IMG/VR virus record: IMGVR_UViG_640753023_000007
Reading direction: 5' to 3' (one strand)
DNA: 41,597 bases
Source: a virus
Lineage: Duplodnaviria; Heunggongvirae; Uroviricota; Caudoviricetes
Below are positions 7,439 to 35,413 of this stretch, one piece after another (positions within the stretch are counted from its first letter, which is position 1; each line of letters begins with the position of its first letter). Both the position numbers and the translations under genes were made by a program. The notes beneath the pieces are model-generated. The model was not told the origin of the DNA, searched no databases, and worked only from the letters and a program-made list of their open reading frames with translations.

Positions 7439-7466
7439 AAAGAAAACCCGGCGCTGAGGCCGGGTT
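7439..7466 (-). terminator. Intrinsic terminator ending the cI-orfA-orfB transcript (analogous position to lambda tIMM)
   Basis: Minus-strand hairpin AACCCGGC-(loop)-GCCGGGTT followed by TTTTCTTTG, starting 3 nt after the orfB stop codon. Confidence 0.65.
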
Positions 7467-12181: not shown

Positions 12182-12213
12182 AGGCCTGCAGGTAATCGCA
12201 GGCCTTTTTATTT
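12182..12213 (+). terminator. Intrinsic terminator between ren and ninB (tR2-like)
   Basis: Perfect 8-bp stem AGGCCTGC / GCAGGCCT with 8-nt loop followed by TTTTTATTT. Confidence 0.7.
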
Positions 12214-13917: not shown

Positions 13918-14280
13918 GTGAATACCTACAGCATCACATTACCCTGGCCTCCGAGCAATAATCGCTATTACCGCCATAATCGCGGGCGCACGCACGTCAG
14001 CGCAGAGGGGCAGGCATACCGCGATAACGTCGCCCGAATCATTAAAAACGCAATGCTGGATATCGGCCTGGCTATGCCTGTGAAAATCCGCATTGAGTGC
14101 CACATGCCGGATCGCCGTCGCCGTGACCTGGATAATCTGCAAAAAGCCGCTTTTGACGCACTCACTAAAGCAGGTTTCTGGCTGGATGATGCTCAGGTCG
14201 TTGATTACCGCGTTGTGAAGATGCCTGTTACCAAAGGTGGGAGGCTGGAACTGACCATCACCGAAATGGGGAATGAATGA
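13918..14280 (+). CDS. rusA: RusA Holliday junction resolvase
   Basis: 120-aa [47 protein letters not shown]... matching E. coli DLP12 RusA; occupies the ninG slot. Confidence 0.9.
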
Positions 14281-14417
14281 TGTTTGAGTTTAATATGGCA
14301 GAACTTCTTCGCCACCGCTGGGGGCGTCTGCGCTTATATCGTTTCCTCGGTTCTGTTTTGACCGATTACCGAATACTGAAGAATTACGCCAAAACCCTGA
14401 CAGGAACAGGAGTATGA
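14280..14417 (+). CDS. ylcG: Small protein YlcG-like (45 aa)
   Basis: Hand translation [45 protein letters not shown]; ATG overlaps rusA stop; matches the small gene following rusA in DLP12 as recalled. Confidence 0.5.
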   Translation: MFEFNMAELLRHRWGRLRLYRFLGSVLTDYRILKNYAKTLTGTGV

Positions 14418-14502
14418 AGTCAGAGATAACAATCAACTAATACTGTTTTGTTGATTTTTGCTTGTAATTGGCGTTCTGGTCTGATTTTTGTGGAGTAAGT
14501 TG

Positions 14503-14886
14503 ATGCGTGATATTCAGATGGTTCTTGAGCGTTGGGGTGCGTGGGCGGCTAATAATCATGAAGATGTGACCTGGTCGTCCATTGCCGCCGGTTTTAAGGG
14601 ATTAATTCCTTCAAAAGTAAAATCTCGCCCGCAATGTTGTGACGATGACGCGATGATCATTTGCGGGTGCATGGCCCGTCTGAAAAAGAACAACAGCGAT
14701 TTACACGATTTATTAGTAGATTATTATGTATGTGGTATGACATTCATGTCACTGGCAAGTAAGCATTGCTGCTCGGATGGTTATATCGGGAAAAGGTTAC
14801 AGAAGGCTGAGGGCATAATTGAAGGGATGTTAATGGCATTAGATATCCGGTTAGATATGGATATCGTTGCTAATAATTCTAATTGA
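14503..14886 (+). CDS. Q: Late gene antiterminator Q (DLP12 QuuD / phage 82-like type)
   Basis: Track ORF 14488-14886 begins with TTG; ATG at 14503 is preceded by GGAG; sequence [24 protein letters not shown]... with Cys-rich zinc-binding region matches QuuD-type Q. Confidence 0.85.
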
Positions 14887-14909
14887 TATGCAATTGTTTA
14901 CTAAAAGTT

Positions 14910-14936
14910 ATTAAAAATGGGGCGTGGAAACGCCCC
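14910..14936 (-). terminator. Candidate intrinsic terminator for the nmpC transcript
   Basis: Hairpin GGGGCG-(6 nt)-CGCCCC; on the minus strand it is followed by ATTTTTAAT. Confidence 0.45.
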
Positions 14937-15025
14937 CAAAATAAAGGGTAATATATAACAGAAGGTTTATATAGTAAGAAGCAAGGTAGTGCTTCTAAAG
15001 GAAGTGGCTTGAGGGCTCCACTTAT

Positions 15026-15064
15026 ATGTTGCGGAGGCAAAGCCTCCCGCAACATATCTTTTTC
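15026..15064 (+). terminator. Candidate tR-prime-like terminator about 140-180 nt downstream of Q
   Basis: 12-bp stem with one bulge (ATGTTGCGGAGG / CCTCCCGCAACAT, loop CAAAG) followed by ATCTTTTTCG on the plus strand; spacing from Q fits a short pR-prime transcript; promoter hexamers only tentatively placed near 14883-14911. Confidence 0.5.
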
Positions 15065-15074
15065 GTAAGTCAGA

Positions 15075-16157
15075 TTAGAACTGATAAACCAGACCTACAG
15101 CGACGATGTCGTCGGTATCAATACCAGCTGTTTTGGTAAACTTACTATCGTCAATTAAGTTGATTTTGTAATCAACAAAAGTGGACATGTTTTTATTAAA
15201 GTAGTAAGTAGCACCGACATCGACATACTTGACTAAGTCTCGGTCACCATGAACACCAAGGTCTTTACCTTTTGACTGAAGGTAAGCAACAGATGGACGC
15301 AGACCGAAGTCAAACTGATATTGTGCTACTGCTTCAAAGTTTTGTGCTTTGTTTGCAATATGGTTATTACCAAAAACGGTCATATTCTGAGTTTCAGAAT
15401 ATGTGGTAGCCAGATAGATATTGTTCGCATCATATTTCAGGCCTGCAGCCCATACTTCCGCATTTTTGCCGGAGGCATTGAATTTGCTCTTACCATAGGC
15501 GACCTGACCGTCAGTGCGATCTGATTTAGCATAGGTTGCACCCACGCCGAATCCTTCATACTCATAAGTAGTGGAGAAACCGAAACCATCACCATTGGCT
15601 TCAGTTACGTCAGTGCGGTCATTTTTACCCTGATACTGAGCAGCAAAGTTCAGGCCATCGACCAGACCAAAGAAGTCGTTGTTACGATAAGTTGCAACAC
15701 CAGTAGTGCGACCAGTCATGAACACATCTGTTTGGGTCCAGGTATCACCACCGAATTCTGGCAGAACGTCAGTCCACGCACCGATGTCGTATGCTACACC
15801 GTAGTTACGGCCGTAATCGATTGAGCCGTAATCACCAAATTTCAGGCCTGCAAATGCAAGACGGGTTTTGTCTTTGGAAGAACCTTGAGATTCAGCACGG
15901 TTGCCTTTGAATTCATATTCCCACTGACCGAAACCAGTCAGTTGATCGTTGATTTGGGTTTCACCTTTGAAGCCAAGACGGGCATAAGTAGTATCACCAT
16001 CATCTGCATCATTAGAGGAGAAGTAGTGCTTGGCATTAACTTTCCCGTATAGATCCAGCTTGTTACTGTCTTTATTATAAATTTCAGCTGCCTGAGCAGA
16101 CATCGCCATCAGTACTGATGCAGCTACAGCAGAAATTGCCACTGTTAATTTTTTCAT
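15075..16157 (-). CDS. nmpC: Outer membrane porin NmpC/OmpD-like (lysogenic conversion moron)
   Basis: Track ORF 15075-16217; start at [23 protein letters not shown] (signal peptide); C-terminal residue F; general-porin family features; inserted antisense between Q and the lysis genes as in DLP12. Confidence 0.9.
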
Positions 16158-16582
16158 TGTACGCCCTTTTTTTGAACTATTATTAAAAAATGATGTCACT
16201 GCGCGATAAATATTCATCTAATCAATGTGATTATTTCAAGATGTAAGTTTTAGTTTCTCATTTAATTTGTGAAGTAGATCTCTATTTTTATCTGAACCTT
16301 TTCTATCTAATCCTATTCATGGCTCTTGTCTGAACAAAAATAAATCTATTAGCTAATTTATATTAATGGCACTTATTTATAAGTGCTCTATAATTCTTTA
16401 GCTTAATTTAAACAAACTAAAAATAACATTGGAAATTATTAACTGGTTATTTGTTGAAGTTTTCTTATGCATTTGTGGTGGTGTTTTGAACACTCGGTGG
16501 CATTCTCACAAATATCATTTAGTAGTTTACGTACGTAAAAAATTGGTTATGCTGTTAAGAGTGGTTACTTCGTCACACAGCT

Positions 16583-16616
16583 TAAACCCGCCGTCGAGCG
16601 GGTTTTTCCATTTTTT
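16583..16616 (+). terminator. Candidate intrinsic terminator upstream of the lysis cassette
   Basis: Plus-strand hairpin AAACCCGC-(6 nt)-GCGGGTTT followed by TTCCATTTTTTG, about 130 nt before the holin start. Confidence 0.5.
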
Positions 16617-16745
16617 GAGTCTCGATATTAGCTGATAACCCAATACCTGAGTTATTCACTGACTCCGAATCTGTTACGTTTCTGCCTTTATTGCGATACG
16701 TAGTATCCCCTTAATTTACACCCGCTTTGTCTGCGAGGTGGGGTT

Positions 16746-16961
16746 ATGAAATCCATGGATAAGTTAACAACGGGTGTCGCCTATGGTACCTCAGCAGGTA
16801 GTGCCGGGTACTGGTTTTTACAGTTGCTCGATAAAGTCACGCCCTCACAGTGGGCGGCAATAGGTGTGCTGGGTAGCCTGGTATTTGGCCTGCTGACGTA
16901 CCTGACAAACCTTTATTTCAAGATTAAAGAAGATAAGCGCAAGGCTGCGAGAGGTGAATAA
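16746..16961 (+). CDS. S: Holin, phage 21 S-type pinholin
   Basis: 71-aa [34 protein letters not shown]...; two TM segments; closely resembles S21 pinholin. Confidence 0.9.
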
Positions 16962-17458
16962 TGCCTCCATCATTACGAAAAGCCGTTGCTGCTGCTATTG
17001 GTGGCGGAGCAATTGCTATAGCATCAGTGTTAATCACTGGCCCAAGTGGTAACGATGGTCTGGAAGGTGTCAGCTACATACCATACAAAGATATTGTTGG
17101 TGTATGGACTGTATGTCACGGGCATACAGGAAAAGACATCATGCTCGGTAAAACGTATACCAAAGCAGAATGCAAAGCCCTCCTGAATAAAGACCTTGCC
17201 ACGGTCGCCAGACAAATTAACCCGTACATCAAAGTCGATATACCGGAAACAATGCGCGGCGCTCTTTACTCATTCGTTTACAACGTGGGTGCTGGCAATT
17301 TCAGAACATCGACGCTTCTTCGCAAAATAAACCAGGGCGATATCAAAGGCGCATGTGATCAGCTACGTCGCTGGACATATGCTGGCGGTAAGCAATGGAA
17401 AGGTCTCATGACTCGTCGTGAGATTGAGCGTGAAATCTGTTTGTGGGGTCAGCAATGA
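16961..17458 (+). CDS. R: SAR endolysin (lysozyme with N-terminal signal-anchor-release domain)
   Basis: 165-aa ORF with Gly/Ala-rich hydrophobic N-terminus ([20 protein letters not shown]) followed by lysozyme domain; matches phage 21 R. Confidence 0.9.
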
Positions 17459-17916
17459 ACAGAGTAACCGCGATTATCTCCGCTCTGGTTATCTGCATCA
17501 TCGTCTGCCTGTCATGGGCTGTTAATCATTACCGTGATAACGCCATTACCTACAAAGCCCAGCGCGACAAAAATGCCAGAGAACTGACGCTGGCGAACGC
17601 GGTAATTACTGACATACAGATGCGTCAGCGTGATGTTGCTGCGCTCGATGCAAAATACACGAAGGAGTTAGCTGATGCGAAAGCTGAAAATGATGCTCTG
17701 CGTGATGATGTTGCCGCTGGTCGTCGTCGGTTGCACATCAAAGCAGTCTGTCAGTCAGTGCGTGAAGCCACCACCGCCTCCGGCGTGGATAATGCAGCCT
17801 CCCCCCGACTGGCAGACACCGCTGAACGGGATTATTTCACCCTCAGAGAGAGGCTGATCACTATGCAAAAACAACTGGAAGGAACCCAGAAGTATATTAA
17901 TGAGCAGTGCAGATAG
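17455..17916 (+). CDS. Rz: Rz i-spanin
   Basis: Track ORF 17443-17916; ATG at 17455 overlaps the endolysin stop; N-terminal TM segment then coiled-coil-like region. Confidence 0.85.
17675..17857 (+). CDS. Rz1: Rz1 o-spanin lipoprotein, embedded in Rz in the +1 frame
   Basis: 60-aa ORF with lipobox (LVVVGC) and proline-rich mature region; GAAGGAG upstream of ATG. Confidence 0.8.
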
Positions 17917-17947
17917 AGCTGCCCATATCGATGGGCAACTCATGCAA

Positions 17948-18241
17948 TTATTGTGAGCAATACACACGCGCTTCCAGCGGAGTATAAATGCCTAAAGTAA
18001 TAAAACCGAGCAATCCATTTACGAATGTTTGCTGGGTTTCTGTTTTAACAACATTTTCTGCACCACCACAAATTTTTGCTGCATCGACAGTTTTCTTCTG
18101 CCCAATTCCCGAAACGAAGAAATGATGGGTGATGGTTTCCTTTGGTGTTACTGCTGTAGGTTTGTTTCCAACAGTAAACGTCTGTTGAGCACATCCTGTA
18201 ATAAGCATTGCCAGAGCGGCAGAAAACAACATTTTTTTCAT
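17948..18241 (-). CDS. bor: Bor lipoprotein (serum resistance)
   Basis: Track ORF 17948-18289; start at MKKMLFSAALAMLITGCAQQ (lipobox LITGC); 97 aa; matches lambda Bor. Confidence 0.9.
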   Translation of the reverse strand: MKKMLFSAALAMLITGCAQQTFTVGNKPTAVTPKETITHHFFVSGIGQKKTVDAAKICGGAENVVKTETQQTFVNGLLGFITLGIYTPLEARVYCSQ

Positions 18242-18721
18242 CTTATTATCCTGCATTGTTAAAAACGGCAGAATCCTATGTGACAACAATTAAACGATAG
18301 TTAAATGGATTGATGAAAATTAAAACTACACAGGTGGGCTCAGACTATTGGAGGAAGTTGGGGACACTCAGAATCCTGTGGAATGAAATAAACCGGTCTA
18401 TCCGTCCATTACCCTTTTAGCTGCGCTGTATCGTCGCCGTATTCCCGCATTAACCATGACCGTAGCCCGACGGGGAATTCCTTCTGCGTGAGTGTGCGGG
18501 AATAATTAAAAACGATGCACACCGGGTTTTTACCGCGTTAATGATTCGCGGGTTTATCCCGGTGCGATGGTGGAAGAAACAGGAAGCTGTATTACAGAAA
18601 GTGCTACTACTGTATCCCGATGCGATGTATGTAATGTGAGTCAGATAATGGCACAGGATGTGGTGATGTGGCAGTCTGGAACACAGGATATATTGTCAGA
18701 ATAAGACCCGTAGGAATAAAA

Positions 18722-26015: not shown

Positions 26016-26072
26016 CACGTTATCAGGCCACCGCGGTGGCCTGACTGATTTCTGAATGAAAGGAACTGATTT

Positions 26073-35353: not shown

Positions 35354-35413
35354 TGCAAAATGTTTTATGTGAAACCGCCTCCGGGCGGTTTTATCGTTTA
35401 TGGAGCATGAGGA

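What the first reader, a model, noticed from the sequence alone, without database searches (positions are those of the whole stretch)
16583..16616. Additional plus-strand intrinsic terminator about 130 nt upstream of the holin gene
A strong hairpin (8-bp stem AAACCCGC/GCGGGTTT) followed by a T-tract lies in the AT-rich region between the nmpC promoter side and the lysis cassette, on the late-transcript strand. It would block unmodified polymerase from reaching the lysis genes and require Q antitermination. Alternatively it may terminate a small plus-strand transcript arising in the nmpC upstream region.
Basis: seen in the sequence. Interest (0 to 1): 0.35.

Follow-up and report, generated by a model that had tools for sequence, protein, structure and literature searches.

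The report
Late-promoter terminator (tR') of DLP12-like prophage
The hairpin is a real transcription terminator, but it is the standard stop signal placed about 25 bases after the prophage's own late promoter, which the phage Q protein must override to switch on the lysis genes, so it is an ordinary, already understood kind of element.

Summary
The hairpin (16584-16605, T-run to 16607) exists as described and is not a chance feature. It is not an extra terminator. It is the promoter-proximal terminator (tR') of the late regulatory module of a DLP12-like lambdoid prophage. The late promoter pR' lies directly upstream (-35 TTTACG 16526-16531, -10 TATGCT 16548-16553, +1 at A16560), so the hairpin spans +25 to +46. 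The porin gene (nmpC-type) is cargo inserted between Q (quuD) and pR', not between pR' and the holin. Evidence: the segment 16523-16607 is homologous to the annotated pR' and first terminator of 933W-type Stx phages. In cargo-free relatives it sits 18-41 nt after the Q stop. Across Enterobacterales the hairpin keeps its pairing despite sequence turnover (95% paired, 5 of 7 pairs compensatory). In E. coli K-12, whose module is identical, public data place a TSS at the nucleotide equivalent to 16560 and an RNA 3' end at the equivalent of 16608, giving a 49-nt leader RNA. Phage 21, archetype of this Q family, has a documented terminator ending near +50. Q-dependent readthrough is inferred, not shown here. 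Known kind; low interest.

The parts
14503..14886 (+). quuD, the late antiterminator Q (127 aa), Q21 family
   Evidence: Pfam PF06530, E 6.7e-54. 81% identical to Q of a 933W-type Stx phage. Annotated quuD in S88 and MG1655. Distant homologue of the solved Q21 structure.
15024..15057 (+). Strong hairpin followed by CTTTTTCG on the plus strand. It probably ends the early-right/Q transcript before the cargo. On the minus strand it lies in the ipeX/nmpC 3' region.
   Evidence: Fold -22 kcal/mol, z -4.4 on both strands. A K-12 minus-strand 3' terminus annotated ipeX lies at the equivalent hairpin.
15075..16157 (-). Porin gene (nmpC/ompC-like), cargo inserted between Q and pR'
   Evidence: Pfam Porin_1, E 1.9e-151. 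Homology to the cargo-free 933W type is interrupted from about 14836 to 16522.
16178..16190 (+). Upstream constitutive plus-strand promoter: -10 TATTAT at 16178-16183, TSS at A16190. Its transcript runs towards the hairpin.
   Evidence: Cappable-seq TSS in MG1655 at U00096.2 576081, score 90.2, equivalent to window 16190 after the +777 coordinate shift.
16526..16539 (+). Palindrome TTTACGTACGTAAA followed by an A-tract, spanning -34 to -21. Candidate Q-binding element that overlaps the -35 (TTTACG, 16526-16531).
   Evidence: Palindromes of different sequence occupy the same position in other module copies, and their class tracks the class of the Q C-terminal half. Phage 21 has its QBE between -35 and -10.
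16548..16553 (+). -10 hexamer TATGCT of the late promoter pR'
   Evidence: Aligns with the annotated pR' -10 of SC370. This position fits TAnnnT in nearly all unfiltered copies while the inner bases vary.
16560..16560 (+). Transcription start (+1) of pR'
   Evidence: Cappable-seq TSS at U00096.2 576452 = NC_000913.3 577229 = window 16560. The 258-nt distance from TSS to tR' published for Sakai Stx phages fits the same nucleotide in the 933W type.
16557..16583 (+). Conserved start region and leader AAGAGTGGTTACTTCGTCACACAGCTT. It contains a small 5' hairpin GUGGU..GUCAC and presumably the sigma-dependent pause and Q-loading signals.
   Evidence: Unique in the window. Found in E. coli, Shigella, Citrobacter, Yersinia, Serratia, Kosakonia and others. 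RNAalifold predicts the 5' hairpin.
16584..16607 (+). The finding: terminator hairpin (stem 16584-16591 / 16598-16605, loop 16592-16597) with T-run 16603-16607, at +25 to +48 of the pR' transcript
   Evidence: structure, rarity. (homology; 3' edge of the shared module). (covariation). (RNA 3' end at K-12 577277 = window 16608).
16611..16617 (+). Second T-run (TTTTTT) after CCA, a possible back-up release site
   Evidence: Sequence. The mapped 3'-end peak spans K-12 577275-577283 = window 16606-16614.
16746..17916 (+). Lysis cassette: pinholin essD (S21-like) 16746-16961, SAR endolysin rrrD 16961-17458, spanin rzpD 17443-17916. These are the first genes protected by the terminator.
   Evidence: Pfam PF04971 and PF00959. 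Annotation in S88 and MG1655.

Best explanation
The hairpin is tR', the promoter-proximal intrinsic terminator of the late-gene regulatory module of this DLP12-like lambdoid prophage. Sigma-70 RNA polymerase starts at pR' (+1 = A16560). Without Q it transcribes 49 nt. The stem-loop at +25 to +46 forms in the RNA exit channel, and the transcript is released in the U-run, with its 3' end near 16608. When QuuD (a Q21-family antiterminator) is made, it binds its site inside pR', probably the palindrome TTTACGTACGTAAA at -34 to -21. It then loads onto the polymerase paused in the conserved leader. By analogy with Q21 it narrows the RNA exit channel so the hairpin cannot form. Polymerase then reads through into essD-rrrD-rzpD and the rest of the late operon. 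Because the porin cargo sits between Q and pR', the same hairpin also stops Q-unmodified plus-strand transcription that arises in the cargo region (strong TSS at 16190), which insulates the lysis genes. Shown: the structure, its conservation, the promoter position, the TSS and the RNA 3' end (the last two in K-12, whose module is identical). Inferred: Q binding, Q loading and Q-dependent readthrough.
For: (1) Window 16523-16607 is homologous to the Q-3'end/pR'/first-terminator segment of 933W-type Stx phages, where records annotate 'pR'' and 'possible rho-independent terminator' at the aligned positions. (2) In cargo-free relatives the same leader and hairpin lie 18 nt (933W type) or 41 nt (PhiR5_1 type) after the Q stop. 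Homology to both ends exactly at the last T of the T-run, 16607. (3) QuuD, Q933W and the PhiR5_1 Q are all PF06530. The sequence class of the promoter-internal palindrome follows the class of the Q C-terminal half, with no exception seen among the 71 loci listed. (4) The hairpin is selected as a structure. In 20 diverse copies 95% of cells pair, against 40-55% with slid partners. 5 of 7 pairs have compensatory changes, and 0 of 500 shuffles reach this. 64 of 88 distinct copies keep a hairpin of -7 kcal/mol or better plus a T-run, even where the stem sequence is replaced. (5) Experimental data for K-12, whose sequence over -60 to +110 of the module differs from the window at four upstream bases only and is identical from the -35 through the T-run: Cappable-seq TSS at the nucleotide equivalent to 16560, and a 3' terminus with dominant position 577277 = window 16608, annotated essD 5' UTR, adjusted p 0 / 4e-5 / 3e-3. 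(6) Phage 21, archetype of the family, has a curated pR' with QBE between -35 and -10, SDPE at +2 to +8 and a terminator at +3 to +50. (7) The leader occurs once in the window, so there is no second pR' next to Q.
Against: In Sakai Stx phages the main pR' transcript is 258 nt and ends at a second terminator, so the orthologous hairpin is read through at least partly without Q. The window's version has an interrupted T-tract and only a modest terminator score of 8.1, so efficiency may be partial. One curated K-12 Term-seq set lists no 3' end here. The Cappable-seq signal at the pR' TSS is weak, at 1.7. No clear -10-like pause element could be identified in the leader. DLP12 literature, as cited in PMC7918800, places the '+1' of the lysis-cassette promoter about 350 nt further upstream and reports RpoE dependence. 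About a quarter of distinct copies carry weakened or lost hairpins.
Confidence: 0.85

Rival explanations
1. Its main role is to end a separate, Q-independent plus-strand transcript that starts in the porin upstream region (TSS at 16190, possibly a leaderless 18-codon ORF or an antisense RNA to the nmpC 5' region). Under this view pR' is a minor contributor.
For: The Cappable-seq score of the upstream TSS is 90.2, against 1.7 for the pR' TSS. No other plus-strand terminator-like site lies between 16190 and 16584. The DLP12 literature places the lysis-cassette '+1' in this upstream area.
Against: The hairpin travels with the pR' leader, not with the porin region. It occurs in phages without any porin, and in phages with unrelated cargo or none. 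Homology to cargo-free phages starts only at 16523. The low read score of a 49-nt RNA may reflect library bias against very short RNAs. This role is compatible with, and secondary to, the tR' role.
Confidence: 0.08
2. The hairpin is not mainly a terminator. It would be a structural RNA element of the late leader, for example a pause or Q-engagement aid or an mRNA stabiliser, and real termination would occur elsewhere.
For: In Stx phages the published pR' transcript passes the orthologous hairpin and ends at +258. The leader upstream of the hairpin is exceptionally conserved.
Against: A 3' end maps in the U-run in K-12. The T-run is conserved together with the stem even where the stem sequence is replaced. 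In the window no second plus-strand terminator lies between it and essD. Phage 21's documented terminator has the same position.
Confidence: 0.05
3. It is a chance inverted repeat in AT-rich intergenic DNA with no function, or a minus-strand signal.
For: The fold-energy z-score of the 56-nt stretch is only -1.2 on either strand. Generic terminator-like patterns are common (15 found against 9 expected).
Against: Under strict criteria such hairpins are about 35-fold enriched over shuffles. There is covariation across genera and a mapped RNA 3' end. The minus-strand tail has only three T.
Confidence: 0.01

Closest known systems
Phage 21 late regulatory cassette (Q21, pR'21, QBE, SDPE, promoter-proximal terminator), as curated in GenBank OL657228 with PMID 1704887 and PMID 31455742
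   Same: Same Q protein family (PF06530). Q site placed between -35 and -10. A terminator hairpin plus U-run ends at about +48 to +50, so the terminated leader RNA is about 50 nt. An S21-type pinholin and SAR endolysin lie downstream.
   Different: QuuD is only distantly related to Q21 (E 4e-8 over 80 residues). There is no sequence similarity in the promoter, leader or hairpin. Phage 21's QBE is a direct repeat (ATTGAGCA AATGAGCA), whereas here the candidate is a palindrome. Phage 21 has Q directly next to pR' and two tRNA genes after the terminator. Here a porin cargo separates Q from pR'.
pR' and first 'possible rho-independent terminator' of 933W/H-19B-type Stx phages (for example GenBank AF548457 features 494-522 and 555-577)
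   Same: True orthologue: 78% identity over 85 nt. It shares the same -35/palindrome, the same leader and the same stem (AACCCGC/GCGGGTT). Q is 81% identical.
   Different: In Stx phages Q overlaps pR', the T-run is uninterrupted (T7), and two further terminators, tRNA genes and stx follow. Homology to the window stops right after the T-run.
StxS small RNA / tR' at +258 of Stx phages (Sy, Lan and Tree 2020, PMC7547250)
   Same: It is also a short RNA made constitutively from pR' by premature termination in lysogens, and from the orthologous promoter.
   Different: StxS is the 3' 74 nt of a 258-nt RNA that ends at the second terminator. That segment is absent from the window, where the RNA would be 49 nt. 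No Hfq binding or trans function is known for it.
Phage lambda pR'-tR' and its 6S leader RNA (textbook knowledge)
   Same: Same logic: a constitutive late promoter, a terminated short leader RNA, and Q loading at a promoter-proximal pause that allows readthrough into S-R-Rz.
   Different: Lambda Q belongs to an unrelated family (PF03589). By my own recollection tR' lies at about +194 rather than about +49.

Membership tests
Intrinsic (Rho-independent) terminator | G+C-rich stem-loop in the RNA | tested here: met
   Perfect 8-bp stem with 5 G-C pairs and a 6-nt loop, about -12 kcal/mol.
Intrinsic (Rho-independent) terminator | U-rich tract directly after the stem | tested here: met
   UUUUU overlaps or follows the 3' arm, then CCA, then UUUUUU. 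The discriminant score is 8.1, positive but modest.
Intrinsic (Rho-independent) terminator | Transcript 3' ends map in the U-tract in vivo | tested here: met
   K-12 3' terminus at 577275-577283, dominant 577277 = window 16608. The element's sequence is identical. It is absent from one other curated set.
Intrinsic (Rho-independent) terminator | Pairing maintained in evolution | tested here: met
   95% of cells paired, 5 of 7 pairs compensatory, 0 of 500 shuffles reach this, slid controls 40-55%.
Intrinsic (Rho-independent) terminator | Factor-independent release by purified RNA polymerase | not testable with these tools
   Needs in vitro transcription.
Lambdoid Q antitermination cassette (Q, pR' with QBE, pause element, tR', late genes) | Q antiterminator gene upstream on the same strand | tested here: met
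   quuD at 14503-14886, PF06530. It lies 1.67 kb upstream because of the cargo.
Lambdoid Q antitermination cassette (Q, pR' with QBE, pause element, tR', late genes) | Promoter with a mapped start just upstream of the terminator | tested here: met
   The -35/-10 align with the annotated pR' of Stx phages. Cappable-seq TSS at the equivalent of 16560.
Lambdoid Q antitermination cassette (Q, pR' with QBE, pause element, tR', late genes) | Q-binding element within the promoter, specific to the Q allele | tested here: inconclusive
   A palindrome at -34 to -21 changes class together with the Q C-terminal half. No binding data were examined.
Lambdoid Q antitermination cassette (Q, pR' with QBE, pause element, tR', late genes) | Sigma-dependent pause element (-10-like) in the initial transcribed region | tested here: inconclusive
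   The leader is highly conserved, but no hexamer with both the conserved A and the conserved final T could be assigned. TACTTC at +7 to +12 is TACATT in the 933W type.
Lambdoid Q antitermination cassette (Q, pR' with QBE, pause element, tR', late genes) | Late (lysis) genes directly downstream of the terminator | tested here: met
   essD, rrrD and rzpD start 140 nt downstream, with no other plus-strand terminator-like site in between.
Lambdoid Q antitermination cassette (Q, pR' with QBE, pause element, tR', late genes) | Readthrough depends on Q | not testable with these tools
   Inferred from homology. PMC7918800 cites work showing Q-type control of the DLP12 lysis operon, but the primary papers were not available.
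StxS small RNA | 258-nt pR' transcript whose 3' 74 nt carry the regulatory seed | tested here: not met
   Homology with 933W-type phages ends at 16607. The StxS segment is absent.

The most novel reading that the evidence does not exclude
The 49-nt pR' leader RNA (an invariant 24-nt 5' part with a small hairpin, then the terminator hairpin) may be more than a by-product. Its leader is conserved from E. coli to Yersinia and Serratia while everything around it is mosaic. It could be a trans-acting small RNA made constitutively by lysogens, as StxS is. Alternatively the leader, together with the allele-specific palindromes, could define a Q-loading mode for the Q933W/QuuD subgroup that differs from Q21, with a symmetric dimer site instead of direct repeats and a non-canonical pause signal.
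Probability: 0.12. Interest if true: 0.5.

Novelty: already known. Interest (0 to 1): 0.2.

Why it matters
It fixes the map of this prophage's late control region. The late promoter and its terminator sit next to the lysis genes, and the porin gene is cargo placed upstream of the promoter, so it is not transcribed antisense by the late operon. For DLP12 biology this is useful. Published reporter constructs for the K-12 lysis cassette include both this module and an upstream promoter, and they place '+1' about 350 nt away from the conserved Q-type promoter. Reported effects of Q and RpoE may therefore need to be reassigned between two starts. Beyond that the element is a textbook device.

Tried and rejected
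- Rfam with permissive thresholds over 14000-18500 gave only two chance-level hits and nothing at the hairpin.
- The fold-energy z-score of the local stretch is uninformative, at -1.2. I replaced it with a strict pattern test.
- The primary DLP12 papers (PMID 23378572, 25998262) and Plunkett 1999 (PMC93574) are not held. I inferred the literature '+1' indirectly from primer sequences.
- The curated Term-seq tables of Adams 2021 list no 3' end at 5768xx-5773xx.
- The SMRT-Cappable-seq supplements contain nothing for this locus.
- No supplements are held for the StxS paper, so I could not check for a 3' end at the orthologous hairpin in Sakai.
- The genome-collection scan returned many chance matches in unrelated phyla. 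I set these aside by requiring the promoter signature.
- I could not assign a sigma-dependent pause element.
- I considered and rejected a minus-strand terminator role (only three T follow) and a pR' next to Q (the leader is unique; the hairpins there serve the Q transcript and nmpC/ipeX).

Full report
**Observation.** The window carries a lambdoid prophage that is 100% identical over this region to prophages of E. coli S88, ATCC 11775 and many other strains. 3279 of 5426 complete E. coli genomes have a related segment. The local gene order is:
- rusA, ylcG and quuD (Q) on the plus strand;
- a porin gene (nmpC/ompC-like) on the minus strand;
- a 590-nt AT-rich gap;
- then essD (S21-type pinholin), rrrD and rzpD on the plus strand.

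The local folding z-score is unremarkable. Hairpins of this quality (perfect 8-bp stem, at least 5 G-C pairs, T-rich tail) occur 0.23 +/- 0.42 times per shuffled window on both strands, against 8 observed strand-hits at 5 sites. A classical terminator discriminant is positive (8.1) but weaker than for orthologues with an uninterrupted T-run (22 and 23.6).

**What it belongs to.** A sensitive search of phage records showed that window 16523-16607 matches the 3' end of Q, pR' and the first terminator of 933W-type Stx phages. Two records annotate 'pR'; putative late promoter' and 'possible rho-independent terminator' at exactly the aligned positions.
- By alignment the window has -35 TTTACG (16526-16531), -10 TATGCT (16548-16553) and a start near A16560.
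- In phage PhiR5_1, which has a quuD-like Q and no porin gene, the same leader and hairpin lie about 40 nt after the Q stop.
- Pairwise comparison defines the junctions. Homology to the 933W type runs through Q to about 14835, is interrupted by about 1.69 kb, resumes at 16523 and ends at 16607, the last T of the T-run. Homology to PhiR5_1 covers 16553-16607.

So the porin gene is cargo inserted between Q and pR', and the hairpin is the 3' edge of a conserved promoter-leader-terminator unit. The leader occurs only once in the window, so there is no second late promoter next to Q. The two hairpins between Q and the porin stop codon are better explained as the end of the Q transcript (15024-15057, plus strand, -22 kcal/mol, tail CUUUUUCG) and as the nmpC/ipeX terminator (14919-14936, minus strand).

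**Breadth and selection.** Across these copies:
- The position 7-12 nt upstream of the start fits TAnnnT in nearly all unfiltered copies while the inner bases vary.
- Further upstream there is a palindrome plus A-tract centred near -27. It falls into discrete classes: TTTACG(TA/AT)CGTAAA, GCGTACGC, GCGGTCCGC, TGGAATTCCA, TGTTATAACA and TTCGTTACGAA.
- The palindrome class follows the class of the C-terminal half of the upstream Q protein, with no exception seen among the 71 loci where Q was found.
- QuuD is 81% identical to Q933W, which shares its palindrome type. It is only 51% identical to the PhiR5_1 Q, which has another type.

This is what a Q-binding element would look like. It supports 16526-16553 as the promoter that QuuD acts on, although no binding was tested.

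The hairpin itself turns over in sequence (ACCCGCC/GGCGGGT, ACCTCGC/GCGGGGT, ACCCTGCC/GGCGGGGT, ACCTCG/CGAGGT, GCCTCA/TGAGGT) but stays a G+C-rich stem followed by T's. In an alignment of 20 diverse copies:
- 95% of cells form standard pairs, against 40-55% when partners are slid;
- 5 of 7 pairs show changes on both sides;
- none of 500 shuffles reaches the observed values.

Of 88 distinct copies, 64 keep a hairpin of -7 kcal/mol or better with a T-run. Its 3' end is at +46 in the main class and at +51 to +61 in others. About 19 copies have weakened versions and 4-5 have none. The caveat is that these copies were ascertained by the leader pattern, and many are close relatives.

**Experimental anchors.** E. 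coli K-12 MG1655 carries a module that is identical from the -35 through the T-run.
- *Transcription starts.* The Cappable-seq list for MG1655 (PMC4782308, U00096.2 coordinates) has only two plus-strand starts between nmpC and essD: 576081 (score 90.2) and 576452 (score 1.7). I converted with the +777 offset between genome versions. That offset is my own knowledge (a 776-bp IS1 at crl plus 1 bp at ylbE). It is checked by the fact that both starts then fall exactly 7 nt after good -10 hexamers. The starts become 576858 (window 16190, -10 TATTAT) and 577229 (window 16560, the predicted pR' start).
- *3' end.* The TRS study (PMC10687069, Supplementary Data 3) lists a 3' terminus at chr + 577275-577283, dominant 577277, annotated essD 5' UTR. 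Its signal is 0.83 and its adjusted p-values are 0, 4e-5 and 3e-3, with our hairpin in the fold column. That position is window 16608, three bases after the stem.
- *Resulting RNA.* Start and end together define a 49-nt RNA.
- *Stx phages.* In Sakai Stx phages, dRNA-seq and Term-seq place the pR' start 258 nt upstream of the tR' 3' end (PMC7547250). That distance fits exactly if the start is the orthologous A and the end lies in the U-run of the second annotated terminator.
- *Negative results.* A curated Term-seq set (PMC7815308) has no 3' end here, and the SMRT-Cappable-seq supplements have nothing.

**Comparison with the archetype.** QuuD, Q933W and relatives are PF06530, the Q21 family, although QuuD is only distantly related to Q21 itself. 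The curated record of phage 21 (OL657228) annotates:
- the pR' -35;
- a QBE of two direct repeats between -35 and -10;
- the start;
- a sigma-dependent pause element at +2 to +8;
- a terminator at +3 to +50, citing PMID 1704887.

Its leader folds into a -20 kcal/mol hairpin followed by U7 that ends near +48. A terminator ending about 50 nt after the late start is therefore the documented design of this family, and the window's element reproduces it with unrelated sequence.

**Mechanism.** The best-supported reading has four steps:
1. Sigma-70 polymerase starts at 16560.
2. Without Q it terminates at 16606-16609 and releases a 49-nt leader RNA.
3. With QuuD bound at the promoter-internal site and loaded at a promoter-proximal pause, hairpin formation is blocked. 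This follows the Q21 nozzle mechanism described in bioRxiv 10.1101/651190.
4. The polymerase then continues into the lysis cassette and late operon.

The first two steps rest on data for the identical K-12 module. Steps 3 and 4 are inferred from family membership.

A second, compatible role follows from the layout. The strong cargo-side start at 16190 sends Q-unmodified polymerases towards essD, and no other plus-strand terminator-like site lies in between. The hairpin therefore also insulates the lysis genes from that transcription.

Termination efficiency is unknown. The interrupted T-run, the modest score and the readthrough of the orthologue in Stx phages suggest it may be partial. This would fit the low basal expression of the DLP12 lysis genes discussed in PMC7918800.

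**Relation to the literature on DLP12.** PMC7918800 states that the operon is controlled by a Q-type antiterminator, RpoE and Hha. It describes a reporter fragment 'from -121 to +650' that cites the RpoE study. Its forward primer maps to window 16085-16104. This puts that '+1' near 16206, next to a sigma-E-like GAACT-N17-TCACT and 16 nt from the strong Cappable-seq start. That is about 350 nt upstream of the conserved pR'. I could not read the primary papers, so this discrepancy is only noted. The reporter fragment contains both promoters and the hairpin.

**Verdict.** The kind of element is textbook, the orthologue is annotated in Stx phage records, and the K-12 3' end is already in a public table, so novelty is low. 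The least ordinary readings that remain open are a trans-acting role for the conserved 49-nt leader RNA and a distinct, palindrome-based Q-loading mode in this subgroup. I give these together about 12%.

Noticed in passing
window 14836-16522; loci L005, L014, L022, L025, L026, L049, L057, L066, L097: The gap between the Q stop and pR' is a cargo hot spot in QuuD/Q933W-type phages. There are 47 distinct gaps of 0.6-2.9 kb holding unrelated genes, mostly on the strand opposite to late transcription. They include a porin, a 443-aa P-loop-like ORF, lipoprotein-like ORFs and two- or three-gene sets. In 20 of 71 copies Q abuts pR'; in 51 it is more than 600 nt away.
   Followed up: partly
window 16526-16545 and the same position in L002, L004, L007-L191: Promoter-internal palindromes followed by an A-tract fall into discrete classes that co-vary with the Q C-terminal half. 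They are candidate Q-binding elements. They are symmetric, unlike the direct repeats annotated for phage 21.
   Followed up: partly
window 16178-16246: A strong plus-strand TSS in K-12 (Cappable-seq score 90.2) maps to window A16190, the A of an ATG that opens an 18-codon ORF ([18 protein letters not shown]). It lies 33 nt from the nmpC start codon on the other strand. It could be a leaderless mRNA or an antisense RNA to the nmpC 5' region. No gene is annotated there.
   Followed up: partly
window about 16174-16206: The '+1' used in DLP12 reporter work ('-121 to +650', PMC7918800, citing the RpoE study) falls near 16206, beside a sigma-E-like GAACT...TCACT. That is about 350 nt upstream of the conserved pR' start at 16560.
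   Followed up: partly
window 14919-14936 and 15024-15057: Two hairpins lie between the Q stop and the porin stop. The first is a minus-strand terminator (tail AUUUUUAAUA). The second is a -22 kcal/mol hairpin with a plus-strand tail CUUUUUCG, which would end the Q transcript. On the minus strand it lies in the ipeX region, where K-12 has a mapped 3' end.
   Followed up: partly
loci L007, L017, L021, L023, L037, L091, L157, L158 and others: A common DLP12-like variant has GAGCTGG instead of GAGCGGG in the 3' arm, which breaks a central G-C pair (best fold about -5 kcal/mol). Another lineage has GCGG followed by T7. These are possibly weakened terminators in cryptic prophages.
   Followed up: no
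L002 555-577 and 758-786; Sakai Sp5 (L127): In Stx phages the published pR' RNA (StxS precursor, 258 nt) ends at the second terminator. The orthologue of this hairpin is therefore read through at least partly without Q. Whether a roughly 50-nt RNA is also made there was not reported in the text I could read.
   Followed up: partly
window 16561-16576: A small 5' hairpin (GUGGU-UACUUC-GUCAC) at +2 to +17 of the leader is predicted in all copies. Because the retrieval pattern fixed most of these bases, its conservation cannot be judged from this sample.
   Followed up: no
window 7445-7466, 12182-12205, 26023-26044, 35372-35391: These are the other hairpins that pass the strict terminator test. 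The one at 12182-12205 lies between ren and ninB, the position of lambda tR2, and has T-runs on both strands.
   Followed up: no
window 16700-16745: The sequence just upstream of the essD dual start (Met1/Met4) can pair (CACCCGC...GCGAGGTGGGG) over the ribosome-binding site. By my own recollection this resembles the start-selection stem-loops described for class II holin genes.
   Followed up: no
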